64,000 nt of DNA, from NCBI RefSeq assembly GCF_964355755.1, contig NC_092674.1, positions 17,608,001-17,672,000 on the forward strand, read 5' to 3'. The DNA is from Antedon mediterranea (Eukaryota > Animalia > Echinodermata). The notes under the pieces were generated by a model. The model worked only from the letters and a program-made list of their open reading frames with translations, did no database searches and was not told the DNA's origin. Every line of letters begins with the position of its first letter. Positions within the stretch are counted from its first letter, which is position 1. The position numbers were made by a program, and so were the translations under genes. This document shows, one piece after another, positions 1 to 50,437 of this stretch.

Positions 1-3000
1 TCTAAACTGTTACTGAATAATAAACGGTCTTTTGACTAAACAATTCACTGATTATTCTACTATGTATTTACAGTTTAAATTCTCTAAACTGTTACTGATT
101 AATCAACTACATTTTGACTAGACAATTCACTGATTATTCTACTATGTATTTGGATTTTAAATTCTCTAAACTGTTACTGACTAATCAACTGTCTTTTGAC
201 TAAACAATTCACTGATTATTCTACTATGTATTTGCAGTTTAAATTCTCTAAACTGTTACTGAATAATCAACTGTCTTTTGACTAAACAATTCACTGATTA
301 TTCTACTATGTATTTGCAGTTTAAATTCTCTAAACTGTTACTGAATAATCAACTGTCTTTTGACTAAACAATTCACTGATTATTCTACTATGTATTTGCA
401 GTTTAAATTATCTAAACTGTTACTGACTAATCAACTACTTTTGACTAGACAATTCACTGATTATTCTACTATGTATTTGCAGTTTAAATTCTCTAAACTG
501 TTACTGACTAATCAACTACATTTCGACTAGACAATTCACTGATTATTCTACTATGTATTTGCAGTTTAAATTCTCTAAACTGTTACTGAATAATAAACGG
601 TCTTTTGACTAAACAATTCACTGATTATTCTACTATGTATTTACAGTTTAAATTATCTAAACTGTTACTGAATAATCAACTACATTTTGACTAGACAATT
701 CACTGATTATTCTACTATGTATTTGCAGTTTAAATTCTCTAAACTGTTATTGAATAATCAACTGTATTTTGACTAGACAATTCATTGATTATTCTACTAT
801 TTACACATAGTTTATATTCTCTAAACTGTTACTGAATAATCAACTGTATTTTGACTAAACAATTCATTGATTATTCTACTATTTGCACACAGTTTAAATT
901 CTCTAAACTGTTACTGACTAATCAACTGTCTTTTGACTAAACAATTCACTGATTATTCTACTATGTATTTGCAGTTTAAATTATCTAAACTGTTACTGAA
1001 TAATAAACGGTCTTTTGACTAGACAATTCACTGATTATTCTACTATTTACACACAGTTTAAATTCCCTAAACTGTTACTGACTAATCAACTGTCTTTTGA
1101 CTAAACAATTCACTGATTATTCTACTATGTATTTGCAGTTTAAATTATCTAAACTGTTACTGAATAATAAACGGTCTTTTGACTAGACAATTCACTGATT
1201 ATTCTACTATTTACACACAGTTTAAATTCCCTAAACTGTTACTGACTAATCAACTGTCTTTTGACTAAACAATTCACTGATTATTCTACTATGTATTTGC
1301 AGTTTAAATTATCTAAACTGTTACTGAATAATAAACGGTCTTTTGACTAGACAATTCACTGATTATTCTACTATTTACACACAGTTTAAATTCCCTAAAC
1401 TGTTACTGACTAATCAACTGTCTTTTGACTAAACAATTCACTGATTATTCTACTATGTATTTGCAGTTTAAATTATCTAAACTGTTACTGAATAATCAAC
1501 TGTATTTTGACTAAACAATTCACTGATTATTCTACTATGTATTTGCAGTTTAAATTCTATAAACTGTTACTGAATAATAAACGGTCTTTTGACTAAACAA
1601 TTCACTGATTATTCTACTATGTATTTACAGTTTAAATTCTCTAAACTGTTACTGAATAATCAACTGTCTTTTGACTAGACAATTCACTGATTATTCTACT
1701 ATGTATTTGCAGTTTAAATTATCTAAACTGTTACTGACTAATCAACTACATTTTGACTAGACAATTCACTGATTATTCTACTATGTATTTGCAGTTTAAA
1801 TTATCTAAACTGTTACTGAATAATCAACTGTCTTTTGACTAGACAATTCACTGATTATTCTATGTGTTTGCAGTTTAAATTCTCTAAACTGTTACTGAAT
1901 AATCAACTGTCTTTTGACTAAAAAATTCACTGATTATTCTACTATGTATTTGCAGTTTAAATTCTCTAAACTGTTACTGAATAATCAACTGTCTTTTGAC
2001 TAAAAAATTCACTGATTATTCTACTATGTATTTGCAGTTTAAATTCTCTAAACTGTTACTGAATAATCAACTGTCTTTTGACTAAAAAATTCACTGATTA
2101 TTCTACTATGTATTTGCAGTTTAAATTCTCTAAACTGTTACTGAATAATCAACTGTATTTTGACTAGACAATTCATTGATTATTGTACTATTTACACACA
2201 GTTTAAATTATCTAAACTGTTACTGACTAATCAACTACTTTTGACTAGACAATTCACTGATTATTCTACTATGTATTTGCAGTTTAAATTATCTAAACTG
2301 TTACTGACTAATCAACTACTTTTGACTAGACAATTCACTTATTATTCTACTATGTATTTGCAGTTTAAATTCTCTAAACTGTTACTGATTAATCAACTAC
2401 ATTTCGACTAGACAATTCACTGATTATTCTACTATGTATTTGCAGTTTAAATTATCTAAACTGTTACTGACTAATCAACTACATTTTGACTAGACAATTC
2501 ACTGATTATTCTACTATGTATTTGCAGTTTAAATTCTCTAAACTGTTACTGACTAATCAACTACATTTTGACTAAACAATTCACTGATTATTCTAATATG
2601 TATTTGCAGTTTAAATTCTCTAAACTGTTAAGTGTTACTGAATAATCAACTGTCTTTTGACTAAAAAATTCACTGATTATTCTACTATGTATTTGCAGTT
2701 TAAATTCTCTAAACTGTTACTGAATAATAAACGGTCTTTTGACTAGACAATTCATTGATTATTGTACTATTTAGACACAGTTTAAATTCTCTAAACTGTT
2801 ACTGACTAATCAACTGCCTTTTGACTAGACAATTCACTGATTATTCTACTATGTATTTGCAGTTTAAATTATCTAAACTGTTACTGAATAATAAACGGTC
2901 TTTTGACTAGACAATTCACTGATTATTCTACTATTTACACACAGTTTAAAATCCCTAAACTGTTACTGACTAATCAACTACATTTTGACTAGACAATTCA

Positions 3001-6000
3001 CTGATTATTCTACTATGTATTTGCAGTTTAAATTATCTAAACTGTTACTGAATAATCAACTGTCTTTTGACTAAACAATTCACTGATTATTCTACTATGT
3101 ATTTACAGTTTAAATTCTCTAAACTGTTACTGAATAATCAACTGTCTTTTGACTAAACAATTCACTGATTATTCTACTATGTATTTACAGTTTAAATTCT
3201 CTAAACTGTTACTGAATAATAAACGGTCTTTTGACTAAACAATTCACTGATTATTCTACTATGTATTTACAGTTTAAATTCTCTAAACTGTTACTGATTA
3301 ATCAACTACATTTTGACTAGACAATTCACTGATTATTCTACTATGTATTTGGATTTTAAATTCTCTAAACTGTTACTGACTAATCAACTGTCTTTTGACT
3401 AGACAATTCATTGATTATTCTACTATTTACACATAGTTTAAATTCTCTAAACTTTTACTGACTAATCAACTACTTTTGACTAGACAATTCACTGATTATT
3501 CTACTATGTATTTGCAGTTTAAATTATCTAAACTGTTACTGACTAATCAACTACTTTTGACTAGACAATTCACTGATTATTCTACTATGTATTTGCAGTT
3601 TAAATTATCTAAACTGTTACTGACTAATCAACTACATTTCGACTAGACAATTCACTGATTATTCTACTATGTATTTGCAGTTTAAATTATCTAAACTGTT
3701 ACTGACTAATCAACTACTTTTGACTAAACAATTCACTGATTATTCTACTATGTATTTGCAGTTTAAATTCTCTAAACTGTTACTGACTAATCAACTACAT
3801 TTCGACTAGACAATTCACTGATTATTCTACTATGTATTTGCAGTTTAAATTATCTAAACTGTTACTGATTAATCAACTACATTTCGACTAGACAATTCAC
3901 TGATTATTCTACTATGTATTTGCAGTTTAAATTATCTAAACTGTTACTGACTAATCAACTACATTTTGACTAGACAATTCACTGATTATTCTACTATGTA
4001 TTTGCAGTTTAAATTCTCTAAACTGTTACTGAATAATAAACGGTCTTTTGACTAAACAATTCACTGATTATTCTACTATGTATTTGCAGTTTAAATTATC
4101 TAAACTGTTACTGACTAATCAACTACTTTTGACTAGACAATTCACTGATTATTCTACTATGTATTTGCAGTTTAAATTATCTAAACTGTTACTGACTAAT
4201 CAACTACATTTCGACTAGACAATTCACTGATTATTCTACTATGTATTTGCAGTTTAAATTATCTAAACTGTTACTGACTAATCAACTACTTTTGACTAAA
4301 CAATTCACTGATTATTCTACTATGTATTTGCAGTTTAAATTCTCTAAACTGTTACTGACTAATCAACTACATTTCGACTAGACAATTCACTGATTATTCT
4401 ACTATGTATTTGCAGTTTAAATTATCTAAACTGTTACTGATTAATCAACTACATTTCGACTAGACAATTCACTGATTATTCTACTATGTATTTGCAGTTT
4501 AAATTATCTAAACTGTTACTGACTAATCAACTACATTTTGACTAGACAATTCACTGATTATTCTACTATGTATTTGCAGTTTAAATTCTCTAAACTGTTA
4601 CTGAATAATAAACGGTCTTTTGACTAAACAATTCACTGATTATTCTACTATGTATTTGCAGTTTAAATTCTCTAAACTGTTACTGACTAATCAACTGCCT
4701 TTTGACTAGACAATTCACTGATTATTCTACTATGTATTTACAGTTTAAATTCTCTAAACTGTTACTGACTAATCAACTACATTTTGACTAAACAATTCAC
4801 TGATTATTCTAATATGTATTTGAAGTTTAAATTCTCTAAACTGTTAAGTGTTACTGAATAATCAACTGTCTTTTGACTAAAAAATTCACTGATTATTCTA
4901 CTATGTATTTGCAGTTTAAATTCTCTAAACTGTTACTGAATAATCAACTGTATTTTGACTAGACAATTCATTGATTATTGTACTATTTAGACACAGTTTA
5001 AATTATCTAAACTGTTACTGACTAATCAACTGCCTTTTGACTAAACAATTCACTGATTATTCTACTATGTATTTGCAGTTTAAATTCTCTAAACTGTTAC
5101 TGAATAATCAACTGCCTTTTGACTAAACAATTCACTGATTATTCTACTATGTATTTGCAGTTTAAATTCTCTAAACTGTTACTGACTAATCAACTACATT
5201 TCGACTAGACAATTCACTGATTATTCTACTATGTATTTGCAGTTTAAATTATCTAAACTGTTACTGACTAATCAACTACTTTTGACTAGACAATTCACTG
5301 ATTATTCTACTATGTATTTGCAGTTTAAATTCTCTAAACTGTTACTGACTAATCAACTACATTTCGACTAGACAATTCACTGATTATTCTACTATGTATT
5401 TGCAGTTTAAATTATCTAAACTGTTACTGACTAATCAACTACTTTTGACTAGACAATTCACTGATTATTCTACTATGTATTTGCAGTTTAAATTATCTAA
5501 ACTGTTACTGACTAATCAACTAAATTTCGACTAGACAATTCACTGATTATTCTAATATGTATTTGCAGTTTAAATTCTCTAAACTGTTACTGAATAATCA
5601 ACTGTATTTCGACTAAACAATTCATTGATTATTGTACTATTTACCAACAGTTTAAATTATCTAAACTGTTACTGAATAATCAACTGTCTTTTGACTAAAA
5701 AATTCACTTATTATTCTACTATGTATTTGCAGTTTAAATTCTCTAAACTGTTACTGAATAATCAACTGTATTTTGACTAGACAATTCATTGATTATTGTA
5801 CTATTTACACACAGTTTAAATTATCTAAACTGTTACTGACTAATCAACTACTTTTGACTAGACAACTCACTGATTATTCTACTATGTATTTGCAGTTTAA
5901 ATTATCTAAACTGTTACTGATTAATCAACTACATTTCGACTAGACAATTCACTGATTATTCTACTATGTATTTGCAGTTTAAATTATCTAAACTGTTACT

Positions 6001-7528
6001 GATTAATCAACTACATTTCGACTAGACAATTCACTGATTATTCTACTATTTACACACAGTTTAAATTCCCTAAACTGTTACTGACTAATCAACTGTCTTT
6101 TGACTAAACAATTCACTGATTATTCTACTATGTATTTGCAGTTTAAATTATCTAAACTGTTACTGACTAATCAACTACTTTTGACTAGACAATTCACTGA
6201 TTATTCTACTATGTATTTGCAGTTTAAATTCTCTAAACTGTTACTGAATAATCAACTACTTTTGACTAGACAATTCACTGATTATTCTACTATGTATTTG
6301 CAGTTTAAATTCTCTAAACTGTTACTGAATAATCAACTGTCTTTTGACTAGACAATTCACTTATTATTCTACTATTTACACACAGTTTAAATTATCTAAA
6401 CTGTTACTGACTAATCAACTACATTTTGATTAAACAATTTACTGATTATTCTACTATGTATTTGCAGTTTAAATTATCTAAACTGTTACTGACTAATCAA
6501 CTACTTTTGACTAGACAATTCACTGATTATTCTACTATGTATTTGCAGTTTAAATTATCTAAACTGTTACTGACTAATCAACTACTTTTGACTAGACAAT
6601 TCACTGATTATTCTACTATGTATTTGCAGTTTAAATTATCTAAACTGTTACTGACTAATCAACTACTTTTGACTAGACAATTCACTGATTATTCTACTAT
6701 GTATTTGCAGTTTAAATTATCTAAACTGTTACTGACTAATCAACTACTTTTGACTAGACAATTAACTTATTATTCTACTATGTATTTGCAGTTTAAATTC
6801 TCTAAACTGTTACTCAATAATCAACTGTCTTTTGACTAGACAATTCACTGATTATTCTACTATGTATTTGCAGTTTAAATTATCTAAACTGTTACTGATT
6901 AATCAACTACATTTCGACTAGACAATTCACTGATTATTCTACTATTTACACACAGTTTAAATTCTCTAAACTGTTCCTGAATAATCAACTGTATTTTGAC
7001 TAAACAATTCACTGATTATTCTACTATGTATTTGCAGTTTAAATTCTCTAAACTGTTACTGAATAATAAACGGTCTTTTGACTAAACAATTCACTGATTA
7101 TTCTACTATGTATTTACAGTTTAAATTCTCTAAACTGTTACTGATTAATCAACTACATTTCGACTAGACAATTCACTGATTATTCTACTATGTATTTACA
7201 GTTTAAATTCTCTAAACTGTTACTGACTAATCAACTACATTTTGAATAAACAATTCACTGATTATTCTAATATGTATTTGCAGTTTAAATTATCTAAACT
7301 GTTACTGATTAATCAACTACATTTCGACTAGACAATTCACTGATTATTCTACTATGTATTTGCAGTTTAAATTATCTAAACTGTTACTGATTAATCAACT
7401 ACATTTCGACTAGACAATTCACTGATTATTCTACTATGTATTTGCAGTTTAAATTATCTAAACTGTTACTGACTAATCAACTACATTTTGACTAGACAAT
7501 TCACTGATTATTCTACTATGTATTTGCA
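1..7528. repeat. 81-82 bp tandem satellite array (continues off the left edge)
   Basis: Unit TCTAAACTGTTACTGA(A/C)TAATCAACT..TTTTGACTA(A/G)ACAATTCACTGATTATTCTACTATGTATTTGCAGTTTAAAT(T/A) is repeated continuously and ends abruptly at ..TATTTGCA 7528. Confidence 0.98.
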
Positions 7529-10500
7529 AATCTTCATAGTTCTATAGAAAACTTGCAATGCTTTTAAATAATTTCTTGCTACTGCATGCCACTGAAATTA
7601 AAAACATAAACCTACCTTTGGATGGATCCTCCTCATTTTGTCATATAACTGTTGAAATTCATAGTAATGGAGAACTGGATTTTTGTTATAGACTTCTCTT
7701 GCCTACAAAAAAAAATAAAAATTGTATTTAATAATGTGATGGTGATTATTACAATTAAATAGATAATACATAAACATTAAACATACTGTTCTTTTTGGCA
7801 CATGACCCTCTTCTATTTGTCTGCCAAACAATTTAAATACAGCGTCCATAACGTCTTGGTTGTCGAATTTCGACTTTGGGCCATGTTTGCTTAGAGGATG
7901 GCTTACAGACTAGTTATATTGAAAGTAGAAAAATAATAAAGTCAAATTAATAGGTGAAATAAGTTTTACAGAAAATGTACTTTAAGTATTTCAAATGAGA
8001 ATTGTATTGATGTTTTAGATAACAATAATAATGACAATAATACCAGGAGTAATTAAAGTGCTTGTAAGATTAACTGGTGGATGATGTTAATATGAAATTG
8101 TATGCCACATATGGATTTGATTATGGGTGATTAGCATAGATTAAATTAAAATAAAATAAACACATTCTATAAACTCAGTACTACACAAAACTAAAAATGC
8201 ATGCAGTTATTTGGTGGTTGATGTTAAAATAAAAGTGTATGCCACATCAGGATTTCAACCCGAGACAAGAGTGTCGATGCTCTACCAGCTGAGCTATGAT
8301 AGCATCCTATAAAAGAAATAGATTTTAGTGATTAGCATGGATTAACACATTCTATAAACCACTAAACAAACAAAAAACGTGCATGCAGTTATCTGGTGGA
8401 TGATGTTAATATGAAAGTGTATGGCACATCAGGATTTGAACCCGAGACCAGAGTGCCGATGCTCTACAAGCTGAGCTATGATAGCATCCTATAAAAGAAA
8501 TAGATTTTAGTGATTAGCATGGATCAACACATTCTATAAACCACTAAACAAACAAAAAACGTGCATGCAGTTATCTGGTGGATGATGTTAATATGAAGGT
8601 GTATGCCACATCAGGATTTGAATCTGAAAAATTAGCATAGATTAAACTAAAATAAAACAAACACACAAACACATTCTATAAACTACTAAACAAATAAACA
8701 TGCATGCAGTTATCTGGTGGATGATGTGAGATATGAAAGTGTATGCCATATCAGGATTTGAATCTGAAAAATTAGTATAGATTAAATAAAAAAAAAAGCA
8801 CAAACACATTCTATAAACTACTAAGCTACCAACTGAGCTATGATAGCATTCTATAACAGAAGAAGATGTTGATATTTAGTATGGAAAAATCATTCTGAAA
8901 ACTACTACATTTAAACAATATACAACTGCAAAGTGAGGATTTGAACAATTACTTTAGAAACTACAGAAGTTATCTTGGGGAGGCCTCAAATTAGTTTGTA
9001 TAAATAAATTAACTAAGCATACAAACTAGAGAATACAAAGAGTAATGTGCAAATTTAAAAAGTAAACATTTTCCTGTTCTTTGAGATACCAAGACCTGAT
9101 AAAAACAGTTAAAGAATGTCCATACAAGTACAAGGGACATTTTGCTGACCTGAAATAAAAACTAATTAAACAAGTACAGTAAAGCCAAATATACCAGGAA
9201 ACTTTGCTGACCTGGTAAAAACATTAGTGCAATATATTGGGAGACTCAAAATCCTACCATCACTCAAGGAATCATACTGCAGTACTAAAACGATAATGTA
9301 CAGTACTCATACAAATTGTTTAAAAATACTACATCAACGTTGACCATATATTGCAGTACCAATTAAAAAGAGTGTGGACTGGAGTGTGGTCTGGCAATAT
9401 TAGTTTGATGCTTTACAAATGTGTCCTTATTAACAATTATTGAATACTTACAGATGATGGCGCTTCATTCGCATGTGCTTGAGAAATTTCCTGGTGAATG
9501 TAAAATAATATTGTACATAATACCATTACTTGTTTCATTATTCGTAAAGAGGTATACAAGATAATAATAATGATTACATAGAATTCAGTCCTGTAAATAA
9601 ATGGACACTGGAAAAATATATATTTATGTGAAAATTGTATCTTACCAGCATTTCATCTATGGTGTCCTCCACACTTGAAAATGCAACCTAGAAAAGATAT
9701 ACCTTAAAGTGAAGTATGTATTGCATTTGGGATAATAAAAGCTTAATATTAAAATGATTTAAGATGCGAAATTGTGTTCCTTTAATTGGTAGTTATACAG
9801 CATTTATAAAACACATAAATTATACAGTTTGCATTCTTTTGTTTTTTATATGAAAGTAATGGCCATCCTTACCTGGACATCAGCAGTTTCATTTATATTC
9901 TGAAAAAGTGTACATAGCACATTAAAAAAAGTAAAGTAAAATTTTAGTTAATAGATGCAATGTTTGTTTTCTTGTTGATTGCTAATTATTAAAGTGTTAG
10001 ATATATTCTTTATATTATGTTATGTTTCAATAAAAAATAAACATCTTTCGGGATACAAACATTTTAGACAGAAATTAAATCTTACCCCACTTCTCCCGAG
10101 TTGACGGTTTGCTGCTATAAGATTGTGGGCTCTTACAGCCGTCTCCCGGGATTGCGTGGCTACTAAAACAAAATAAAAATGAAAGTGTATGCCAGATCAG
10201 GATTTGAACCGGAGACCTTCGACTAGAGTGCCGATGCTCTACCAGCTGAGCTATGTTAGCATTCTATACAAGAAATAAATTTTAGTGATTAGCATGGATT
10301 AACACATTCTATAAACTACTAAACAAAAACATGCATGCAGTTATCTGGTGGATGATGTTAATATGAAAGTGTATGCCACATCAGGATTTGAATCTGAGTG
10401 ATTAGCATAGATTAAATTAAAATAAAACAAACATACATACAAACACATTATATAAACTACTAAATAAATAAACATGCATGCAGTTATCTGGTGGATGATG

Positions 10501-13500
10501 TGAGATATGAAAGTGTATGCCACATCATGAATTAAATCTGAGTGATTAGCATAGATTAAATTAAAGTAAAATAAACACACAAACACATTCTATAAACTAC
10601 TAAACAAATAAACATGCATGCAGTAATCTGGTGGATGATGTGAGATATGAAAGTGTATGCCATATCAGGATTTGAATCTGAAAAATTAGCATAGATTAAA
10701 CTAAAATAAAACAAACACACAAACACATTCTATAAACTACTAAACAAATAAACATGCATGCAGTTATCTGGTGGATGATGTGAGATATGAAAGTGTATGT
10801 CACATCTGAATTTGAAAAATTAGTATAGATTAAATTAAAATAAACAAAAACTGAAACACATTCTATAAACTACTAAACAAATAAACATGCATGCAGTTAT
10901 CTGGTGGATGATGTTAGATATGAAAGTGTATGCCACATCAGGATTTGAATCCGAGTGATTAGCATAGATTAAATTAACAAAAATAAACACACAAACACAT
11001 TCTATAAAGTACTGAATAAATAAACATGCATGCAGTTATCTGGTGGATGATGTGAGATATGAAAGTGTATGCCACATCAGGATTTGAACCCGAGACCTTC
11101 GACAAGAGTGCCGATGCTCTACCAGCTGAGCTATGATAGCATTCTATAAAAGAAATAGATTTTAGTGATTAGCATGGATTAACACATTCTATAAACTATT
11201 AAACAAAAAACATGCATGCAGTTATCTGGTGGATGATGTTAATATGAAAGTGTATGCCACATCAGGATTTGAATCCGAAAAATTAGCATAGATTAAATTT
11301 AAAAAAAACAAACACACAAACACATTCTATAAACTACTAAACAAATAAACATTCATGCAGTTATCTGGTGGATGATGTTAATATGAAAGTGTATGCCACA
11401 TCAGGATTTGAATCTGAGTGATTAGCATAGATTAAATTAAAATAAAACAAACATACAAACACATTCTATAAACTACTAAACAAATAAACATTCATGCAGT
11501 TATCTGGTGGATGATGTTAATATGAAAGTGTATGCCACATCAGATTTGAATCTGAGTGATTAACATAGATTAAATTAAAATAAAACAAACACACAAACAC
11601 ATTCTATAAACTACTAAATAAATAAACATGCATGCAGTTATCTGGTGGATGATGTTAGATATGAAAGTGTATGCCACATCAGGATTTGAATCTGAGTGAT
11701 TAGCATAGATTAAATTAAAATAAAACAAACATACAAACACATTCTATAAACTACTAAACAAATAAACATGCATGCAGTTATCTGGTGGATGATGTTAATA
11801 TGAAAGTGTATGCCACATCAGGATTTGAATCTGAGTGATTAGCATAGATTAAATTAAAATAAAACAAACATACAAACACATTCTATAAACTACTAAACAA
11901 ATAAACATTCATGCAGTTATCTGGTGGATGATGTTAATATGAAAGTGTATGCCACATCAGGATTTGAATCTGAGTGATTAGCATAGATTAAATTAAAATA
12001 AAACAAACACACAAACACATTCTATAAACTACTAAATAAATAAACATGCATGCAGTTATCTGGTGGATGATGTTAATATGAAAGTGTATGCCACATCAGG
12101 ATTTGAACCCGAGACCTTCGACAAGAGTGCCGATGCTCTACCAGCTGAGCTATGATAGCATTCTATAAAAGAAATAGATTTTAGTGATTAGCATGGATTA
12201 ACACATTCTATAAACTACTAAACAAATAAACATGCATGCAGTTATCTGGTGGATGATGTTAATATGAAAGTGTATGCCACATCAGGATTTGAATCTGAGT
12301 GATTAGCATAGATTAAATTAAAGTAAAATAAACACACAAACACATTCTATAAACTACTAAACAAAAAAAAAACATGCATGCAGTTATCTGGTGGATGATG
12401 TTAATATGAAAGTGTATGCCACATCAGGATTTGAACCTGAGACTTTCAACAAGAGTGCCGATGCTCTACCAGCTGAGCTATGATAGTATTCTATAAAAGA
12501 AATAGATTTTAGTGATTAGCATGGATTAACACATTCTATAAACCACTAAAACAAAATATTAAAAATTAAATACACAGTTATTGAGTGGATGATGTATGAC
12601 ACATCAGGATTTGAACTAGATGTAAATGTTCAGAAATAAGGTTATTTATTTATTATAAAATTATGTGTGAATATTTTTGCCTTTAAAATAGTTTACTTTT
12701 CCCATTCTCCTAGTTTAATTTAATAAAATTAAAATTGCCAATCATCCAATGCCTGAAATAAAAGGTAACATACTACATTTTTATATATCAATAGTAAAAG
12801 TAAAAGGATAGCCAGCCAGACAACCATAATAATATTGTGCAAGAATGCACCCAGATAGATTAAGGGTACTTGGAAATCAATTAACTACTACTGTACTTAG
12901 TTTAGTAAAAGGATTTTGATCATTTACATAGTGACCTTGTCCTGGTAAATACAGGTGAACCTTAGAACAATATCATAATCAACATTTTACCTATACCTAA
13001 TTACCTTTACTAACACAATGACTAAATAAGCTAGGATTAAGGTTAGTTTTAGTTATTTCTCCTAGTTTCTCCTAGTCTTTACCTAATAACATACAATATG
13101 ATAAATCTTATGATTATCAATACATTTTATGGATAAAGAAATAATATAAAAAACATACCAACTATGCTTTTAATTGTTTTCTCAGATTTTCTGAGATAAT
13201 GGGATTGTTCGTCCGCCGAAACTAGATCACCTTAAAAGAAAATTAAAACATATTATTATTATTATTTCAATTTAAATAATATGACTTTCAAACATTTGAT
13301 GAAAAGAAAAACTTTAATTCAATAGATGTTACCTTCAATTTCTTCGTGCTTTTTGGCCTTCTCTTCAGAAATGCGTTTTCTGAGAGCTTTGCTCAGGCCT
13401 TTGCATGCATCTTTGCACTTGTATATTTCGGCAAGCGAAACAGATTTAGATTCGTATATTGAAATGTAGTCCAATATTTTCACAAAGGAGCACAGGTAGT

Positions 13501-16500
13501 GTCTTAACGTGGAGCCAGCAAGCTTCAATTGTAAATGGCTAACAGCACTAAACAATTATTTTTAAAAAAATGAAAAGAAGAGTACAATACACAAAAATCG
13601 AATATTAAAATATGTAATATCTTCATTATAGTAATTAGGATCGAGTGATTCATGGTAACTTCACATGGTTTAAAATTCAATTCAAATTCAACTTAACATT
13701 TATTTCTTCCTTCAAGAAAATGAAGGTAGCAGGCAATAATACATTATACTCACAATCTATAGCTGACATTTAAGAAAACTTTTTATTTTAATGCTAAATG
13801 AAATTTAAATTGTTTGGCTTCTTCCTTTTTCTATTAATATAATTGTAATAAAAAAATGTTACGTCTTTAATATCTTTGGAGAATATCCCTTCTCCCCTGC
13901 TTCACTCCAAATTCCCTCTATCCCCTTTATGACCTGTGCTGCATGCTTTGCCGGTATTTTTAAAGTTTCTAACATGTAGGCCTTGAACCGGCTCATTGCT
14001 GTAGATGGCTCTATAGAAGTTAAAAAGACTTTAATGACATTAAAAATAAGTCCATTCTTGGAAAACAAAGTTCAGGATCCGAAAGTTGACCCATGACATA
14101 ATTATTATTATATTACAATTGTTATTACAGTAATTTTATTTATTAGTGTCTGGGATTGGTTATCTAAATTAATAGTAATTATTTGGGATAAAGAGAACTT
14201 TGTATTTGACCTAAATGTAGTAGTTAGTAGTAGAAATTAGGTAATTATAATTCTCCAGCATAGATAAAATGAATTGTTTTTGTCAATAAAAGGTACACAT
14301 TTATTTTTAAATTGAAACTATTAATTATCTATCAAAAAATGAAACTTTATAATAATTTTATAAATAAAAGGTTACCTGCAAATTTACAGACTTTTTGTTG
14401 TCTGAACTTAATATATTCAGGACTGCCAACCAAAAAAAAAATGTAAATGTATAACTTACCTATATAACTTTGATTTGCATCACAATTAAGCTAAGAAATT
14501 AGCATGGATTAAGACATACAGCGAAAATTAAAGTATTTAAAAACAATTACAAAGTAAATAAAAAATAAACATGCATGCAGTAATCTGGTGGATGATGTTA
14601 ATATGAAAGTGTATGCCACATCGGGAATTGAATCTGAGTGATTACCATAGATTAAATTAAAATAAAATAAACACACAAACACATTCTATAAACTACTAAA
14701 CAAAAAAACATGCATGCAGTTATCTGGTGGATGATGTTAATATGACAGTGTATGCCACATCAGGATTCAAACCCGAGACCTTCGACAAGAGTGCCGATGC
14801 TCTACCAGCTGAGCTATGATAGCATTCTATAAAAGAAATAGATTTTAGTGATTAGCATGGATTAACATATTCTATAAACTACTAAACAAAAAAACGTGCA
14901 TGCAGTTATCTGGTGGATGATGTTAATATGAAGGTGTATGGCACATCAGGATTTGAATCTGAAAAATTAGCATAGATTAAACTAAAATAAAACAAAACAC
15001 AAACACATTCTATAAACTACTAAACAAATAAACATGCATGCAGTTATCTGGTGGATGATGTTAATATGAAAGTGTATGCCACATCAGGATTTGAACCCGA
15101 GATCTTCGACAAGAGTGCCGATGCTCTACCAGCTGAGCTATGATAGCATTCTATAAAAGAAATAGATTTTAGTGATTAGCATAGATTAACACATTCTATA
15201 AACTACTAAACAAAAAAAACATGCATGCAGTTATCTGGTGGATGATGTTAATATGAAAGTGTATGCCACATCAGGATTTGAATCTGAGTGATTAGCATAG
15301 ATTAAATTAACAAAAATAAACACACAAACACATTCTATAAACTACTAAACAAATAAACATGCATGCAGTTATCTGGTGGATGATGTTAATATGAAAGTGT
15401 ATGCCACATCAGGATTTTAATCCGAGTGATTAGCATAGATTAAATTAAAGTAAAATAAACACACAAACACATTCTATAAACTACTAAACAAAAAAACATG
15501 CATGCAGTTATCTGGTAGATGATGTTAATATGAAAGTGTATGCCACATCAGGATTTAAATCTGAAAAATTAGCATAGATTAAATTAAAATAAAACAAACA
15601 CACAAACACATTCTATAAACTACTAAACAAATAAACATGCATGCAGTTATCTGGTGGATGATGTTAATATGAAAGTGTATGCCACATCAGGATTTGAACC
15701 CGAGACCTTCGACAAGAGTGCCGATGCTCTACCAGCTGAGCTATGATAGCATTCTATAAAAGAAATAGATTTTAGTGATTAGCATGGATTAACACATTCT
15801 ATAAACTACTAAACAAAAAAAACATGCATGCAGTTATCTGGTGGATGATGTGAGATATGAAAGTGTATGCCACATCCGAATTTGAATCTGAAAAATTAGT
15901 ATAGATTAAATTAAAAAAAACAAAAACTGAAACACATTCTATAAACTACTAAACAAATAAACATGCATGCAGTTATCTGGTGGATGATGTTAATATGAAA
16001 GTGTATGCCACATCAGGATTTGAATCTGAAAAATTAGCATAGATTAAATTTTTAAAAAACAAACACACAAACACATTCTATAAACTAGTAAACAAATAAA
16101 CATGCATGCAGTTATCTGGTGGATGATGTTAATATGAAAGTGTATGCCACATCAGGATTTGAATCTGAGTGATTAGCATAGATTAAATTAAAATAAAACA
16201 AACATACAAACACATTCTATAAACTACTAAACAAATAAACATTCATGCAGTTATCTGGTGGATGATGTTAATATGAAAGTGTATGCCACATCAGGATTTG
16301 AATCTGAGTGATTAGCATAGATTAAATTAAAATAAAACAAACACACAAACACATTCTATAAACTACTAAATAAATAAACATGCATGCAGTTATCTGGTGG
16401 ATGATGTTAATATGAAAGTGTATGCCACATCAGGATTTGAATCTGAAAAATTAGCATAGATTAAATATAAAAAAAACAAACATACAAACACATTCTATAA

Positions 16501-19500
16501 ACTACTAAACAAATAAACATGCATGCAGTTATCTGGTGGATGATGTTAATATGAAAGTGTATGCCACATCCGAATTTGAATGTGGTGGATTTAAGCATAG
16601 ATTAAAATAAAACAAACACACATTCTATTAAATACTAACAAAATAATAAATAATTTTAAAGTGTACTGCATGTACACCTCAAAATTTGGACCTGAGACAG
16701 AGTGGTGATACTCTACGAACTCTAAAAAATAGATTTTTGTAATTAACATACATATTTAAAAAAAAAATAAACAATAAACAAACAATTATAATAGTTGGAA
16801 ATACATTACTACTCTACACACTATTTCTTGGTCTGAAATAAAACAAAAAATTTAATTTAACATTTGATTGAACATATATCTGCTAAAGTTGAAAGAATTT
16901 TAACTTACAGGGAATTTATGCTTCCTTTGCAGATGCATGTCATACCTTGCCAGGTTTTTAGCCGAACATCCAGGCACACTGCAGGAATGTCTGGCCTTTT
17001 TTTTTCCCCCTTAAAGAAAACTTTAAATGATACACTCATGATAACTAGATAAAACATACAAAACTGTTTATCATTTTTCAATAATCCAATCACAGTATTC
17101 AATTCACCCAAAAATAGAAACCATTGAGAATGTTTGGTTTTCAATACATTACAAGTGCAGTTTTCGGTTTCCAGTATTGGTAGAGTTAACTAGTAAAATA
17201 TTCTATAAAAAAGAAACTGCAAACAAAACTAAGATAAATAAAAATATGTAATTTATTATATTTAGCTGAAGAAACTCCATGTTATACTTAACAATATGTT
17301 ATTTATAATTTAGCTGGTAACCACATGAAAAAAATTGTTCATAATGAATGAAGTACTCACCTTTTTCTAGCATCAGCAACCATGTTTTTAATTATTTCTC
17401 TATTTATTATTTTGTGGGCCTTTTCCAGATGGCTGGCAAGGTACCTGCTTATGCGGCCACACAGAATGCATGTTAACAATTTTCTGTTCTGTAGGCAATA
17501 ATAAACCATGACTATTTTGAATGAATGCTTTAAGGTCTATTCATTATCAACAACCAATATCAAAATATAAAATTTTATATTATTTGTATTCAATAAAAAA
17601 AACTATTTTAATGAAGTTAAATAATTTAAGACTTCAGTAACCACAGATGTAAACTACAACTATCTACGGTAATTAGATTTTTGATGCTAATCTACAGGGA
17701 AAATTTAATCTAGCTAAATTGATAATAAAAAAAATGAGGAAACAAAGTTTAAGTTAATATTTTACTTCAAATTAAGTACAAAAGTATATTCAATATGCTA
17801 CTTTCCCTTACAGCTTTCTTCTTTTCTATGTCCTTCCTAATAAAAACAAAATACAACACATAGGTATTAAAGGAAAAGTACTGATAAAGTAATATAATAT
17901 TTCATGTTAACTGTATATAACTACCGTATTTTTATTTTTACATTATTTAATAACATAGCATTTAGGGCCTAAGTGATCCATTGGCTGTTTATTTTAATTA
18001 CAGTATTAGTCAAAAAATATTATATTTACTTTTTTCCCTTCTTTTGAAAATCACTATACCTAAACAAATTAAAAAAATATTGTTATGGTTATAGTAATAA
18101 CTAAAGTTAACACAAATAAGGATGCTCAATAGTATATGTTTTGCTACATAATAAGCTCAATCTAGAAAAATAATACTGGTAAATTTTAGAAAATGATAAA
18201 CTATGTTCATTCTAGAATGTCTAAATACAAAACAGTTCATAACTTACATCTCAACTACCTCCTCTTCTTTTTCCTCGTCTTCTTTCTCGCTTTCTTCTTC
18301 TTCTTCTTCCTCCTCCTCCTCCTCCATGTTTTCCTCTTCCTCCATTTCTTCTTCCTCGTCTTCTTTCTCATTTTCTTCCTCCTCCATGTTTTCCTCTTCC
18401 TTATTTTCTTTCTTCTCAAATTCTCCATCCTCACTTCTATTAATAGTTCACAAAGTACACACAAATATTGTAGGTGTATTAAAATAAAAGTCGAAAAAAA
18501 AAAACTATTTATAGACCTACTATGAAATAATATAGAAATTATATAAGCATGTATGTTTGCACAAATTAGAATAGATGTTTGGCTTTAGGTAAATAAACAA
18601 CAGTATATATCCTATTCTTCGTTAACAAAATAATTTCAAGTATTTATTTTTTAACAAAAATAAGTTTGAATTGTATGGTGTGAATAATAAAGTATAAATA
18701 ATTACGTCAAAATAAAACAAAATTGTAAATTTATGGCAAAAATGGTTTATCACAGATAACAAATCACCCGAGTTAACTAACTGGTTAATTATTGAACCGA
18801 TTAATATTAAAATTTGCAAGGTAGGCTCAAATTAAACCCTAGCCATCAGCGCAAGATCAGTAATCTGGATGTCGTGGTTCATACAAACACAACAGATTTA
18901 TTCTCAAATTGGATACTTACACTTTGTCAGACATGTAGTCTTCTTTGCTACTAATAATAAAATTAAACAAATATTGTTAGTTAATTTTTACTTTGAAAAA
19001 CAAATACAGGCTCTAATTATTAACCTCTTTTATTTCATTAAAGCAAATAATTAAAAAAATCATTTCAAACCCTTACTTTTTTATCATTATGAATAAAAAT
19101 GAATAAAGGTTTGTTTATAACATGTCATTTTTCAAGAAGGCTGTACCAACGAAGATACAATATTGGAATTAAAAATAAAATACTTACCATCTAAATTTGT
19201 CATGGATGTAAAAATGGAGTAATTTATCAATAAATTTCTAACTATACTTACCAGTCTTCATGATTAAAAAAAATCGCTTTCAGTTAATTCATCAGGTTGC
19301 TATAAAAAAATAATGTTATTATTATTGTATATTTGTTACAAATAATTAAACTAAAGTTATCCGTAACTATTATTACATAGTGCAGTATTATTATTACTTT
19401 TCTAAGGCTTAACCTTACTTTTATATACTGTACTTGAAAAAGTTGAATTCCATGACTAAGATAAGCTCTAGATAAATGGATTATTACATTTGTGATTCAG

Positions 19501-19777
19501 CCAAGGAGCATTATCAGTACGGGACATGTCAGCTCATTTAGGAGATTAGATTAGTAATGACGTACATTTTATAAAAAGTCTGCTTTAGCGATAACATTTT
19601 ATAAACTTAAAATACCAACAACTGACAACAACCATTTGGTCCAGCATAAAATCTGGATGTTTCAGTATACAAAGCGAGTTGAATCGCTCCACCAAACCTG
19701 GAATAAATCATCCTGGATTCAGGTAAATTTAGGTAAATGAATTGTTTACTTACGGGTGAATTACAAAAACGGTCCAT
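7473..19777 (-). CDS. Multi-exon gene (possibly a pseudogene): acidic region, 2x C2H2 zinc finger, YR-like core-binding region and Myb-like C-terminus; no catalytic YR domain found
   Basis: Hand-built exons with GT..AG flanks on the minus strand: 19777-19754 (ATG, MDRFCNSP), 19299-19252, 18950-18921, 18436-18248, 18059-18030, 17836-17812, 17488-17361, 17009-16909, 14490-14460, 14010-13863, 13547-13333, 13230-13159, 10162-10086, 9899-9873, 9687-9646, 9490-9452, 7909-7787, 7702-7616, 7541-7473 (TAG). Phases are compatible throughout except for one extra base in each of two homopolymer runs (19266-19273, 16997-17005). The two most upstream exons and 14490-14460 are the least certain. Confidence 0.72.
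7616..7909 (-). CDS. Two exons encoding a Myb/SANT-like helical C-terminal domain
   Basis: 7909-7787 SVSHPLSKHGPKSKFDNQDVMDAVFKLFGRQIEEGHVPKRT (123 nt) and 7702-7616 AREVYNKNPVLHYYEFQQLYDKMRRIHPK (87 nt). Both are phase 0 with canonical splice sites. The Myb-like call is by motif resemblance. Confidence 0.7.
8070..8860 (-). repeat. Intronic tRNA-derived tandem repeat, array 1 (degenerate)
   Basis: Units contain CATGCATGCAGTTATCTGGTGGATGATGTTAATATGAAAGTGTATGCCACATCAGGATTTGAA. tRNA-like copies at ~8240-8303 and ~8422-8484 carry a 7-nt deletion. Confidence 0.9.
10178..12620 (-). repeat. Intronic tRNA-derived tandem repeat, array 2 (~119-bp and ~170-bp units)
   Basis: Short units keep only the T-arm/B-box half. 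Long units carry the full tRNA-like sequence (10190-10260, 11070-11140, 12089-12159, 12417-12487). Confidence 0.93.
11070..11140 (-). tRNA. tRNA-like sequence or pseudo-tRNA (Lys-CTT-like), representative copy
   Basis: Minus strand GCTATCA-TAGCTCAGCTGGTAGAGCA-TCGGC-ACTCTT-GTCGA-AGGTC-TCGGGTTCAAATCCTGA-TGTGGCA has A box, B box, D arm and T arm. The anticodon loop is 6 nt and the acceptor stem is bulged, so it is probably not a functional tRNA. Confidence 0.65.
13159..14010 (-). CDS. Three exons encoding a tyrosine-recombinase-like core-binding (SAM-like) region
   Basis: Spliced in phase (1/2/1/1): EPSTAMSRFKAYMLETLKIPAKHAAQVIKGIEGIW..KILKT|AVSHLQLKLAGSTLRHYLCSFVKILDYI..LRKRISEEKAKKHEEIE|GDLVSADEQSHYLRKSEKTIKSIV. 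The STxxxYLxSxxxxxxY helix pattern is typical of integrase N-terminal domains. Confidence 0.65.
14495..16700 (-). repeat. Intronic tRNA-derived tandem repeat, array 3
   Basis: Same two unit types; full tRNA-like copies at 14753-14823, 15077-15147 and 15680-15750. Confidence 0.93.
16909..17488 (-). CDS. Two C2H2 zinc-finger exons
   Basis: 17488-17361 NRKLLTCILCGRISRYLASHLEKAHK.. with donor AG|GTGAGT. 17009-16909 ..HSCSVPGCSAKNLARYDMHLQRKHKFP with donor GTAAGT. Neither reading is in the ORF track. Confidence 0.8.
18248..18436 (-). CDS. Glu-rich acidic exon
   Basis: 189 nt, phase 2/2, AG..GTAAGT; reads SEDGEFEKKENKEEENMEEEENEKEDEEEEM..EEEVVEM. Confidence 0.75.
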
Positions 19778-19859
19778 TTTGAAATAATCTGTGGAACAAA
19801 TGATACATTTTTTGAAGAAAAAAAAAGCACTGAAGCCAGGGGTAGCATATACTTGCTAA

Positions 19860-20385
19860 CGAGAAGGGCCTACTGTGGTCCAACTTTTAATACCCTCTCC
19901 TTTATGCTAGGCCTAGGGGCCTACTCTAACCTAGCTAGTGTGGTATGATTGATAGGCCTAGCTAGAGACTAGGCCTATACATGACATAGGCCTACACCTA
20001 ACCTCCTATCTAGGCTACAGACAGATTCAGCCAACTAGGCTAGGCCTAAACTATTATTAACCTAGCCTAGGCCTAGCTAGGTAGACCAGGCTAGTAGGCC
20101 CTATAGCCTGGCCCAAGGAGGTAGGTTTAGTTCCTACCCTATCTAGGCCTATAATAATACTTTAATACGCAGGCCTAGGCCTAGCTAGGTAGGCTATGCC
20201 TAGCTAAGCTAGCTAGGACCTAGCCTAGCTAGGAGGGCTTATTAATTATTGTTAGGCCTCTAGCTAGCTAGCTAGGCCTAGCCTAGCTAGGCCTAGGCCT
20301 AGCCCTCTAGGGCCTAGGCTAGTAGGCCTAAGCCTAACTAGGGGCCTCTAGGCTAGGCCTAGCCTAGGCCTAGGTTAGGCCACAA
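19860..20385. repeat. CTAG/AGGCCT palindromic low-complexity tract in the predicted first intron
   Basis: Dense CTAGGCCTAG and CTAGCTAG motifs lie between the donor at 20532 and the ATG exon at 19788. Confidence 0.8.
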
Positions 20386-20532
20386 TCATTTTATGGTGGT
20401 ATTTTTTTATTTTGGCCATTTAAAACAAAAAATCTCTGTACTTTAGTACAGGGATTAAGGCACTTGGTTATGCAATAAAAATTTATGTTAGGATAATAAA
20501 ATGTAATAAAAGTACCTAGCTTATAGCCTTAC

Positions 20533-20790
20533 CTTTCTACAAACAGTCTGTTTTAACGATCAGATCAATACAGATGAATTTAAAAATTTAAAAAAACACC
20601 GCGTCCGGATGGGTTTATTTATAAAATTAGTGAAAGAGGCTGAATGCCAGTGATTACCTAACTGTTGAAAATTCTTCAATCGACGCGAGTGCATCTGAAA
20701 TCAGCATAATTGCACCCAAAAAACAGGTTGCATCGCGATATGCTGATCGGCCGCCGCTGATTAGCATTGAAAAGTTGCATTGTGCGCTCC
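20533..20790 (-). promoter_or_regulatory. Putative non-coding first exon and promoter of the minus-strand gene
   Basis: Strong donor AAAG|GTAAGG at 20532, a locally CpG-containing segment at 20600-20790, and the CTAG tract downstream. Inferred only. Confidence 0.4.
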
Positions 20791-22386
20791 CTCGCTGATC
20801 TATCTCTCTCTCGCTGATCTATCTCTCTTTCTCGCTGATCTATCTCTTTCTCGCTGATGTATCTCTCTCTCGCTGATCTATCTCTCTCTCGCTGATCTAT
20901 CTCTCTCTCGCTGATCTATCTCTATCTCGCTGATCTATCTCTCTCTCGCTGATCTATCTCTCTCTCGCTGATCTATCTCTCTCTCGCTGATCTATCTCTT
21001 TCGCTGATCTATCTCTCTCTCTCGCTGATCTATCTCTCTCTCGCTGATCTATCTCTCTCGCTGATCTATCTCTCTCTCGCTGATCTATCTCTCTCGCTGA
21101 TCTATCTCTCTCTCGCTGATCTATCTCTCTCGCTGATCTATCTCTCTCGCTGATCTATCTCTCTCTCGCTGATCTATCTCTCTCTCACTGATCTATCTCT
21201 CTCTCGCTGATCTATTTCTCTCGCTGATCTATTTCTCTCTCTCGCTGATCTATCTCTCTCTCGCTGATCTATCTCTCTCTCGCTGATCTATCTCTCTCTC
21301 GCTGATCTATCTCTCTCTCTGATCTATCTCTCTCGCTGATCTATCTCTCTCTCGCTGATCTATCTCTCTCTCGCTGATCTATCTCTCTCTCGCTGATCTA
21401 TCTCTCTTTCGCTGATCTATCTCTCTCTCGCTGATCTATCTCTCTCTCGCTTATCTATCTCTCTCTCGCTGATCTATCTCTCTCTCTCGCTGATCTATCT
21501 CTCTCTCGCTGATCAATCTCTCTCTCGCTGATCTATCTCTCTCGCTGATCTATCTCTCTCTCGCTGATCTATCTCTCTGTCGCTGATCTATCTCTCTTTC
21601 GCTGATCTATCTCTCTCTCGTTGATCTATCTCTCTCTCGCTGATCTATCTCTCTCTCGCTGATCTATCTCTCTCTCTCGCTGATCTATCTCTCTCTCTCG
21701 CTGATCTATCTCTCTCTCGCTGATCTATCTCTCTCTCGCTGATCTATCTCTCTCTCTCGCTGATCTATCTCTCTCTCTCGCAGATCTATCTCTCTCGCTG
21801 ATTTATCTCTCTCTCGCTGATCTATCTCTCTCTCGCTGATCTATCTCTCTCTCTCGCTGATCTATCTCTCTCTCGCTGATCTATCTCTCTCTCGCTGATC
21901 TATCTCTCTCGCTGATCTATCTCTCTCTCGCTGATCTATCTCTATCTCGCTGATCTATCTCTCTCTCGCTGATCTATCTCTCTCTCGCTGATCTATCTCT
22001 CTCTCGCTGATCTATCTCTCTCGCTGATCTATCTCTCTCTCTCGCTGATCTATCTCTCTCTCGCTGATCTATCTCTCTCTCGCTGATCTATCTCTCTCTC
22101 TCGCTGATCTATCTCTCTCGCTGATCTATCTCTCTCTCGCTGATCTATCTCTCTCGCTGATCTATCTCTCTCGCTGATCTATCTCTCTCTCGCTGATCTA
22201 TCTCTCTCTCACTGATCTATCTCTCTCTCGCTGATCTATTTCTCTCGCTGATCTATCTCTCTCGCTGATCTATCTCTCTCTCGCTGATCTATCTCTCTCT
22301 CGCTGATCTATCTCTCTCTCGCTGATCTATCTCTCTCTCGCTAATCTATCTCTCTCTCGCTGATCTATCTCTCTCTAGCTGATCTA
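20791..22386. repeat. 17-21 bp pyrimidine-rich minisatellite (CGCTGATCTA(TC)nT)
   Basis: Continuous repeats of CTCGCTGATCTATCTCTCT with a variable CT count. Confidence 0.98.
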
Positions 22387-22835
22387 CAGTATATTGTGTT
22401 AACATCATCTAATTGAGCCATAGTAACGAGTTATGTCTAAAAATAAAAGGGTCGAAATTTGGCCATTTTTCGAAAAATTTCCCTGCGGGGGACTATAGGA
22501 TTTTTTCCAAAAATTTTAAAATTTTCCACTTTTTAAAATTCAATAATTATGCTATAATATTGCCATTTATGCAAATATATTGTGCTAACATCATCTTATA
22601 GAGCCATAGTTACTAGTTATGTCAAAAAATAAAACGATCGAAATTTGGCCATTTTTGAAAATTTTCCTGCTGGGGACCATAGGAATTTTTTCGAAAAATG
22701 GCAAACCTTTCCACTTTTTAAAATTCGAAAATTATGCTGTAATATTGCCATTTACGCACATACATACCCTTTTTTTTTACATAACTAGTTACTATGCTTG
22801 TAAAAAGACTATGGCTCTATAAGATGATGTTAATA
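22387..22835. repeat. ~186-bp repeat family A (two forward units, then an inverted fragment)
   Basis: ATATTGTGTTAACATCATCTTATAGAGCCATAGTAACTAGTTATGTC.. at ~22391 and ~22577; reverse-complement fragment at ~22768-22835. Confidence 0.88.
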
Positions 22836-22839
22836 CTGT

Positions 22840-50358: not shown

Positions 50359-50437
50359 CTTAGCAGATTGTAGAATATTAACTATTGAATATTCTTACTC
50401 ACAGATTAATCTTCTTATTGACGCGCTTTCCGTTATA

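What the first reader, a model, noticed from the sequence alone, without database searches (positions are those of the whole stretch)
10086..13230. YR catalytic domain seems cleanly missing, exactly across a repeat-filled intron
The exon ending ..DLVSADEQSHYLRKSEKTIKSIV (phase 1) can splice in frame to VATQSRETAVRAHNLIAAN.. (phase 1). As I recall the family, the R-K-H-R-H-Y catalytic domain lies between these segments, and the second resembles the helix after the catalytic Tyr. The interval holds only the 2.4-kb tRNA-repeat array and ~0.5 kb of AT-rich DNA with no such motifs. Inference: recombination between repeat arrays in different introns deleted the catalytic exons in frame. That would leave a DNA-binding-only protein, either a non-autonomous derivative or a possible dominant-negative repressor.
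Basis: inference. Interest (0 to 1): 0.72.

Follow-up and report, generated by a model that had tools for sequence, protein, structure and literature searches.

The report
Broken copy of a recombinase gene
This assembly carries a copy of a likely transposon-type tyrosine recombinase gene whose catalytic middle is cut out, and other individuals still hold the missing catalytic-tyrosine stretch, so it is likely an ordinary private deletion or an assembly error, not a purpose-built repressor.

Summary
The catalytic region is absent from the window and the 13159-to-10162 splice would be in frame. The proposed mechanism is wrong. Contigs from two other samples of the same organism (X1, X5) and from a related organism (X6) do not run from 10161 into the repeat array. 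They continue as coding sequence reading KLSTQEAYYK, a catalytic-tyrosine-like motif whose 7 variable sites are all third codon positions. One breakpoint therefore lies inside an exon, just after the tyrosines. The other lies inside a repeat unit, and the join has a 2-nt microhomology. The 'acceptor' at 10163 is the repeat unit's own TTTAG, one of 26 such sites in the array. No X1 or X5 contig crosses the window's junction, and no spliced skip was seen. Best reading: a private microhomology-type deletion in an intron-rich, multicopy, Crypton-like gene (about 0.6); an assembly misjoin is the main rival (0.3). A dominant-negative repressor is unsupported (0.04), and an unverified upstream frameshift may stop translation first. 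YR identity rests on motifs and sub-threshold leads only. No earlier scan note on this gene turned up.

The parts
10160..10161 (.). Deletion (or misjoin) junction: 2-nt microhomology shared by the exon and the repeat unit; joins the array edge to the middle of the catalytic-Tyr exon
   Evidence: tables 7 and 8; (26 of 27 CTACTAAA words in the arrays follow repeat DNA, only this one follows exon DNA)
10086..10161 (-). 3' remnant of the exon that carries the tyrosine motif in other individuals (ATQSRE..GRSG), true donor GTAAGA at 10085
10163..10178 (-). Acceptor-like pyrimidine tract plus AG supplied by the repeat unit (cryptic; use not shown)
   Evidence: 26 acceptor-like AGs in 2394 nt of array
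10162..12555 (.). Intronic tandem array of about 139-nt units with longer tRNA-like units; low-coordinate edge truncated mid-unit
10190..10260 (-). tRNA-like unit nearest the junction (others at 11070-11140, 12089-12159, 12422-12482)
   Evidence: RF00005 30.7-38.8 bits; ARAGORN 0 genes
12556..13158 (-). Unique intron DNA without YR motifs; 12600-13113 matches an X1 contig with 0 differences
13159..13230 (-). Exon DLVS..IKSIV, phase 1/1, last exon before the missing region
   Evidence: (spliced X5 contig ends exactly at 13159)
13333..13547 (-). Exon for a helical, likely core-binding-type domain; 43% identical to P0001; 14 of 16 listed differences synonymous
13863..14010 (-). Exon PSTAMS..KILK
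14376..14422 (-). Tentative small exon (with 16822-16832) that links the frames
   Evidence: prediction only
14559..16622 (.). Second intronic array of the same repeat
16909..17009 (-). Exon with a C2H2-like motif; one base out of frame with the preceding exon, A9 run at 16997-17005
   Evidence: not checked with reads
17361..17488 (-). Exon with a C2H2-like motif
   Evidence: (only sub-cutoff ROS_MUCR and Sgf11 matches)
17812..18950 (-). Four predicted 5' exons (18950-18921, 18436-18248 acidic tract, 18059-18030, 17836-17812), one open frame
9452..9899 (-). Three small phase-0 exons (9899-9873, 9687-9646, 9490-9452)
8159..8824 (.). Third intronic array of the same repeat
7616..7909 (-). Two C-terminal exons (7909-7787, 7702-7616)

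Best explanation
The window holds a deletion version of an intron-rich, likely Crypton-type tyrosine recombinase gene, in which the edge of an intronic tRNA-like repeat array is joined to the middle of the exon that carries the tyrosine motif, likely by a microhomology-type break repair private to this haplotype. SHOWN: the catalytic region is absent here; other individuals and a related organism continue the exon into a KLSTQEAYYK motif; the join is mid-exon with 2 nt of overlap. INFERRED: that the protein is a YR; that the event is a real allele made by end-joining or template switching at the array edge; that the copy is catalytically dead and probably makes no useful protein. The size of the lost piece is unknown.
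For:: X1 record 2 (0 differences over 9994-10161, depth 31.8), X1 record 7 (depth 18.1), X5 record 10 and an X6 record all leave the window at 10159-10161 into the same coding motif. X1 record 8 (depth 36.2) and an X6 record show the array edge preceded by more repeat DNA; listed records account fully for the depth across the junction in X1 (49.66 vs 49.7; 36.2 vs 36.2) and X5 (6.25; 0), so neither run has a contig across it. For a real allele rather than an error: nine main X1 pieces match the window over about 3,150 laid letters with 9 substitutions and 0 gaps (my sum, pieces overlap by about 30 nt), so base quality is high; the join is in unique exon DNA with only 2 nt shared, not inside long identical repeats where a collapse is expected (general knowledge). 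X1 differs from the window at full depth at several sites (9079, 9186, 9264, 9906), so it is likely another individual and its lack of the junction does not prove an error. Broken copies occur elsewhere in the family (X6 frameshifted copy; X1 depth-5 copy interrupted near the same spot).
Against: The deletion is seen in one source only, the assembly itself. Contigs drop rare variants. For X6, 24 of 32 laid records were not listed, so a bridging contig there is not excluded. The junction abuts a 2.4-kb array with two near-identical sister arrays in the same gene, a setting prone to misassembly. YR identity has no significant profile hit: Pfam 0 significant for 8 exons and for P0001, PDB sequence search 0, Atlas named hits all under 0.9, fold model unusable (pLDDT 48.6).
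Confidence: 0.6

Rival explanations
1. Assembly misjoin: the individual has the intact gene and the assembler dropped the catalytic exons at the array edge.
For: 3 of 3 covering runs show the uninterrupted form; no X1 or X5 contig crosses the junction. Three copies of the same array lie within 9 kb. A possible homopolymer slip at the A9 run suggests long-read origin.
Against: The join is mid-exon with 2 nt of overlap, not repeat-to-repeat. No indels against the main X1 contigs. X1 is probably a different individual.
Confidence: 0.3
2. The deletion copy is spliced through the repeat-derived cryptic acceptor and makes an in-frame protein with zinc fingers, core-binding domain and the helix after the tyrosine, acting as a KP-like poison subunit against intact copies.
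For: The chain from 17009 to 7616 is open for 329 codons. The cryptic AG is followed by the true donor. The gene is spliced in X5. C-terminal helices dock into neighbouring subunits in XerA and Cre (PMC3646895 passages). KP repressors exist for P elements (PMC5800288 passages).
Against: No contig shows the skip. The allele was seen once. The acceptor is an accident of the repeat unit. A frame mismatch upstream would stop translation at codon 151 if real. The window has a private non-synonymous change at 13923 where all four runs agree, a single site that fits relaxed selection.
Confidence: 0.04
3. One reading: unequal recombination between repeat arrays in two introns removed whole exons in frame.
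For: The same repeat does fill three introns of this gene.
Against: The exon-side breakpoint is inside coding sequence in X1, X5 and X6, and 8890-10161 has no repeat similarity beyond 10-11-nt chance words.
Confidence: 0.02
4. The family naturally lacks the domain here and the tyrosine-motif contigs belong to other copies.
For: X1 and X6 hold several related copies.
Against: In X1 every listed record reaching the site leaves the window at 10159-10161 and depth bookkeeping leaves no room for a window-type copy. P0001 has the R-motif straight after the upstream segment.
Confidence: 0.04

Closest known systems
Crypton DNA transposons and their non-autonomous derivatives (CryptonA/I, PMC3212892 abstract and sections 5, 8, 16 read; CryptonV, known to me here only from passages in PMC8869645 and PMC5753468)
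   Same: Eukaryotic gene with a YR-like R-motif (in P0001) and tyrosine motif, several copies per genome, some broken. Deleted non-autonomous derivatives are described for CryptonA and CryptonI.
   Different: About 17 predicted exons, two C2H2-like motifs, an acidic tract and a C-terminal extension; PMC3212892 says CryptonA/I have no C-terminal domain. No element ends found. Assignment to CryptonV is a recalled resemblance, not tested.
Domesticated DUF3504 genes (KCTD1b, KIAA1958, ZMYM2-4, QRICH1, WOC; PMC3212892)
   Same: Crypton-derived, intron-containing, non-catalytic proteins proposed to bind DNA or proteins; QRICH1 and DUF3504 clusters appear among the sub-0.9 Atlas leads.
   Different: Those keep the domain, lose catalytic residues by substitution and are fixed across deep lineages. 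Here the domain is deleted in one assembly while other individuals keep the tyrosine motif under apparent purifying selection.
Glomhopper (fungal CryptonA; PMC13465315 abstract and passages)
   Same: Intron-rich YR copies (1-20 predicted introns), many truncated; the authors cannot separate domesticated from decaying copies.
   Different: Fungal, DUF3504-positive, single-domain. No DUF3504 Pfam hit here.
KP repressor of the Drosophila P element (PMC5800288 passages)
   Same: Internally deleted element keeping the DNA-binding N-terminus.
   Different: KP is a DDE-transposase derivative, widespread in populations, with shown repression. This deletion was seen once and has no evidence of a product.
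Anneissia japonica XP_033114909.1, uncharacterized, 161 aa (P0001)
   Same: 43% identity over 70 residues; collinear across two window exons.
   Different: Continues into the R-motif that the window lacks, then ends; it is itself a fragment.

Membership tests
Tyrosine recombinase superfamily (intact form of this gene) | First catalytic Arg motif | tested here: inconclusive
   ENSCRAGVI motif seen by eye in homolog P0001; absent from the window; the intact local sequence could not be retrieved.
Tyrosine recombinase superfamily (intact form of this gene) | H-x-x-R motif and catalytic Lys | not testable with these tools
   Lies in the missing segment; loose ends give only 30 letters.
Tyrosine recombinase superfamily (intact form of this gene) | Catalytic Tyr nine residues after His/Trp, followed by a helix | tested here: inconclusive
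   KLSTQEAYYK read by eye from four loose ends. The codon nine before the second Tyr ends in C, compatible with His but not shown. The spacing rule is recalled.
Tyrosine recombinase superfamily (intact form of this gene) | Profile or fold match | tested here: inconclusive
   No significant Pfam or PDB sequence hit. Atlas: 8 of the 10 best named hits share a family or clan with the best one (telomere-resolvase catalytic domain), all at 0.86 or lower. Model pLDDT 48.6, so no fold search was run.
Active YR (window copy) | R-H-R-Y tetrad present | tested here: not met
   No match in 10163-13158; the Tyr-motif letters have 0 matches in the window at up to 3 mismatches.
Crypton transposon | YR gene without reverse transcriptase | tested here: inconclusive
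   No RT-like ORF among stop-free segments of 7.5-21 kb; element limits unknown.
Crypton transposon | Multiple dispersed copies | tested here: inconclusive
   X1 holds extra records about 90% alike at depths 5-18 and X6 holds at least two versions; alleles and paralogs cannot be fully separated and positions are unknown.
Crypton transposon | Defined termini or empty site | tested here: inconclusive
   Only 11-12-nt chance words shared between 7400-7700 and 19400-22900; no genome held.
CryptonV | Insertion into a microsatellite (some families) | tested here: inconclusive
   The gene is flanked by different tandem arrays, an 82-mer (1-7528) and a 19-mer (20787-22386); not the same repeat on both sides.
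CryptonV | Sequence similarity to Repbase CryptonV proteins | not testable with these tools
   No Repbase library on hand.
DUF3504 domesticated genes | DUF3504 domain with lost catalytic residues, fixed in the lineage | tested here: not met
   No DUF3504 hit; other individuals keep the Tyr motif.
KP-type repressor | Expressed truncated protein, spread in populations, represses the intact element | tested here: inconclusive
   Junction absent from X1 and X5 contigs; no carrier RNA available; repression not testable.

The most novel reading that the evidence does not exclude
The interesting object is the intact gene, not the deletion: a roughly 20-exon, zinc-finger-bearing tyrosine recombinase that is spliced, present at full depth in other individuals, shared with related organisms (with the same repeat edge in X6) and under purifying selection right through its catalytic tyrosine. 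It would be a host-domesticated YR that has kept its catalytic activity in an animal, unlike the DUF3504 genes, and the window would be a natural knock-out allele of it.
Probability: 0.1. Interest if true: 0.6.

Novelty: new member of a known kind. Interest (0 to 1): 0.17.

Why it matters
As it stands it matters little: internally deleted copies of transposon-type genes are common, and this one may be an assembly error. The useful lesson is that a repeat unit can supply a convincing in-frame splice acceptor at a mid-exon break, so a 'clean exon loss' read from one assembly can be false. If the intact gene proved to be a fixed, catalytically competent recombinase in this animal lineage, it would be a rare domesticated active YR and worth a functional study.

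Tried and rejected
No whole genome is held, so paralogs could not be aligned. Homolog searches found one protein only: 1 hit among 1.84 billion representatives; 0 of 336, 1 (itself) of 19 and 0 of 2420 candidates in three word-based searches. Viral and metagenome collections gave nothing. Pfam and PDB sequence searches gave nothing significant. The AlphaFold model was too poor to search. Atlas structure hits were unrelated helical proteins, TM 0.5 or less by query for 9 of 10 rows. No run is on record as RNA (no RNA holder listed); X5 is a guess supported by one spliced joint and it also holds unspliced intron. The X5 contig stopping exactly at 13159 suggests a branch at the donor but does not say which exon follows, so it is not used for or against the skip. 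Parts without cover in X5 and X9 are not used as evidence. Hidden catalytic exons in 12560-13158 were rejected: seven phase-compatible candidates, none with a YR-like motif. No micro-exon repairs the 17361/17009 frame mismatch. The chain stop counts used an exon start off by one and are void; one search replaces them. Literature: searches for CryptonV or tyrosine recombinase, Crypton + transposon + domestication and Crypton + crinoid (only irrelevant listings) found no description of this gene; Repbase Reports is outside the library, and no supplements were read.
Full report
What the window shows. A minus-strand gene runs from about 18,950 to 7,616 in 17 predicted exons, all with AG/GT ends. 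Three introns hold arrays of one repeat of about 139 nt. In 10,000-12,700 four longer units score above the Rfam tRNA threshold, while ARAGORN finds 0 tRNA genes in the window. No whole genome is held.

Is something missing? The 72-residue exon found 1 protein among 1.84 billion representatives, P0001, E 5e-08, 43% identity, an uncharacterized Anneissia japonica protein of 161 residues. It aligns collinearly with exons 13547-13333 and 13230-13159 and then continues into YLRNYIITSLAIENSCRAGVI, which resembles the first-Arg motif of tyrosine recombinases (recalled). That part has no match in 10163-13158 (best E 1.2), and seven phase-compatible exon candidates in the unique intron show no such motif. 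So a segment is missing.

Where the break lies. Nine public runs hold part of the locus; I laid four of them on the two flanks. On 8900-10200, X1, X5 and X6 cover the junction and X9 does not. X1 record 2 is identical to the window over 9994-10161 and then continues into other letters. X1 record 7, X5 record 10 and an X6 record do the same. Read by eye on the minus strand, in the frame of the ATQSRE codons, these four loose ends give K-L-S-T-Q-E-A-Y-Y-K. They vary at 7 sites, all third codon positions, with no residue changed (one codon incomplete; record 7 also has one non-synonymous change at 10160). A fifth loose end, X1 record 5 at depth 5, matches for about 4 letters and then diverges into unrelated DNA. 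From the other side, X1 record 8 (0 differences, depth 36.2) and an X6 record show 10160-10200 preceded by more repeat sequence. Exon and repeat share the two letters at 10160-10161. In the arrays, 26 of 27 copies of the word at the junction follow repeat DNA and only this one follows exon DNA. The listed records account for all depth across the junction in X1 and X5, so those runs hold no contig of the window's form. For X6, 24 of 32 laid records were not listed, so this is not shown there. The 30 motif letters occur nowhere in the window at up to 3 mismatches.

The loss runs from inside a repeat unit to the middle of an exon, just after the tyrosines. It is not a repeat-to-repeat event between two introns, and 8890-10161 has only chance 10-11-nt words in common with the repeat. 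The AG at 10163-10164 is the unit's own TTTAG; 26 acceptor-like AGs lie in the array. Because a true donor follows at 10085, cryptic use is possible and would be in frame, but no contig shows it. An X5 contig shows the intron 13332-13231 spliced out and stops exactly at 13159; it does not reveal the next exon.

Real allele or assembly error. For real: nine main X1 pieces match the window over about 3,150 laid letters with 9 substitutions and 0 gaps (my sum); the join is in unique DNA with 2 nt of overlap; X1 differs from the window at full depth at several sites and is likely another individual. For error: one source only, an array-rich setting, and a possible homopolymer slip elsewhere. I put these at 0.6 and 0.3.

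State of the family. In exon 13547-13333, 14 of the 16 listed differences are synonymous, against 21% expected at random (P of at least 13 of 16 is 5e-07). These are the listed rows only; 56 rows of that table were not shown. In other exons the listed differences are more mixed: 3 of 6, 4 of 8 and 6 of 10 synonymous, partly from paralogs. Broken versions exist: an X6 version with frame-breaking indels beside an indel-free one. The window itself has one non-synonymous change at 13923 where all four runs agree, and a one-base frame mismatch between exons 17488-17361 and 17009-16909 that would stop translation at codon 151; no micro-exon repairs it and it was not checked with reads.

What it is like. 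The YR call rests on two motifs and on Atlas leads: top hits are unnamed eukaryotic clusters at 0.95-0.97, and 8 of the 10 best named hits share a family or clan with the best one, a telomere-resolvase catalytic domain, all at 0.86 or lower. Pfam, PDB sequence search and folding gave nothing usable. An intron-rich animal YR gene without a nearby RT is closest to Cryptons. Non-autonomous derivatives and catalytically dead domesticated forms are described (PMC3212892, abstract and sections 5, 8, 16), as are intron-rich and truncated fungal copies (PMC13465315, passages). CryptonV I saw only in passing mentions (PMC8869645, PMC5753468), so membership is untested. The repressor idea has a precedent in KP (PMC5800288, passages) and a structural rationale in C-terminal helix docking (PMC3646895, passages), but no evidence here. 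PMC8371274 passages added nothing.

Earlier scan notes. None near this place, by sequence or by words. Six unrelated notes on the same genome came up; some call the host a feather star, which fits the P0001 hit but is not otherwise checked here.

Verdict. The gap is real in the assembly and the mechanism proposed for it is refuted. This is most likely a dead deletion copy of a Crypton-like gene, possibly a misjoin. Interest 0.17.

Noticed in passing
window 10160-10165 (X1 record 5): A low-depth related copy in X1 leaves the shared sequence about 4 nt beyond the window's own breakpoint into unrelated DNA: an insertion or an extra intron at almost the same spot next to the tyrosine codons.
   Followed up: no
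window 9885 (X5 record 10): The X5 contig has 108 other letters before 9885, inside the 27-nt exon 9899-9873; X1 and X6 follow the window there.
   Followed up: no
window 13282-14053 (X6 records 18-21): The related organism holds an indel-free version (depth 57-60) and a version with frame-breaking indels (depth 27-39).
   Followed up: partly
window 16997-17005 and 19266-19273: A9 run in an exon that is one base out of frame with the one before; T8 run in a further 5' exon-like segment (19299-19252) that has stops in all frames. Real lesions or homopolymer errors.
   Followed up: partly
window 8159-8824, 10162-12555, 14559-16622: One tRNA-derived satellite has expanded in three introns of the same gene; the array edge at 10160 is shared with the related organism X6, so it is not recent.
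   Followed up: partly
window 12815-12960 (X9 record 25): An intronic stretch is matched by the third organism with 1 substitution and 7 gap letters, and 12716-12860 by X6; possibly a conserved element or an unrecognised exon.
   Followed up: no
window 13671-13733: A short high-copy element in an intron (depth about 1,200 in X1 and 4,400 in X6), absent from one X1 variant and one X6 contig.
   Followed up: no
window 24431-35083 and 51601-62279: A 10.7-kb direct duplicate at 92% identity with 25-bp satellite arrays and LINE-like ORF fragments.
   Followed up: no
window 46674-50394, minus strand: Long gag-pol-like ORFs of an LTR retrotransposon, recognised by eye.
   Followed up: no
window 1-7528 and 20787-22386: The gene is bracketed by an 82-bp satellite of at least 7.5 kb and a 19-bp CT-rich array.
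   Followed up: partly
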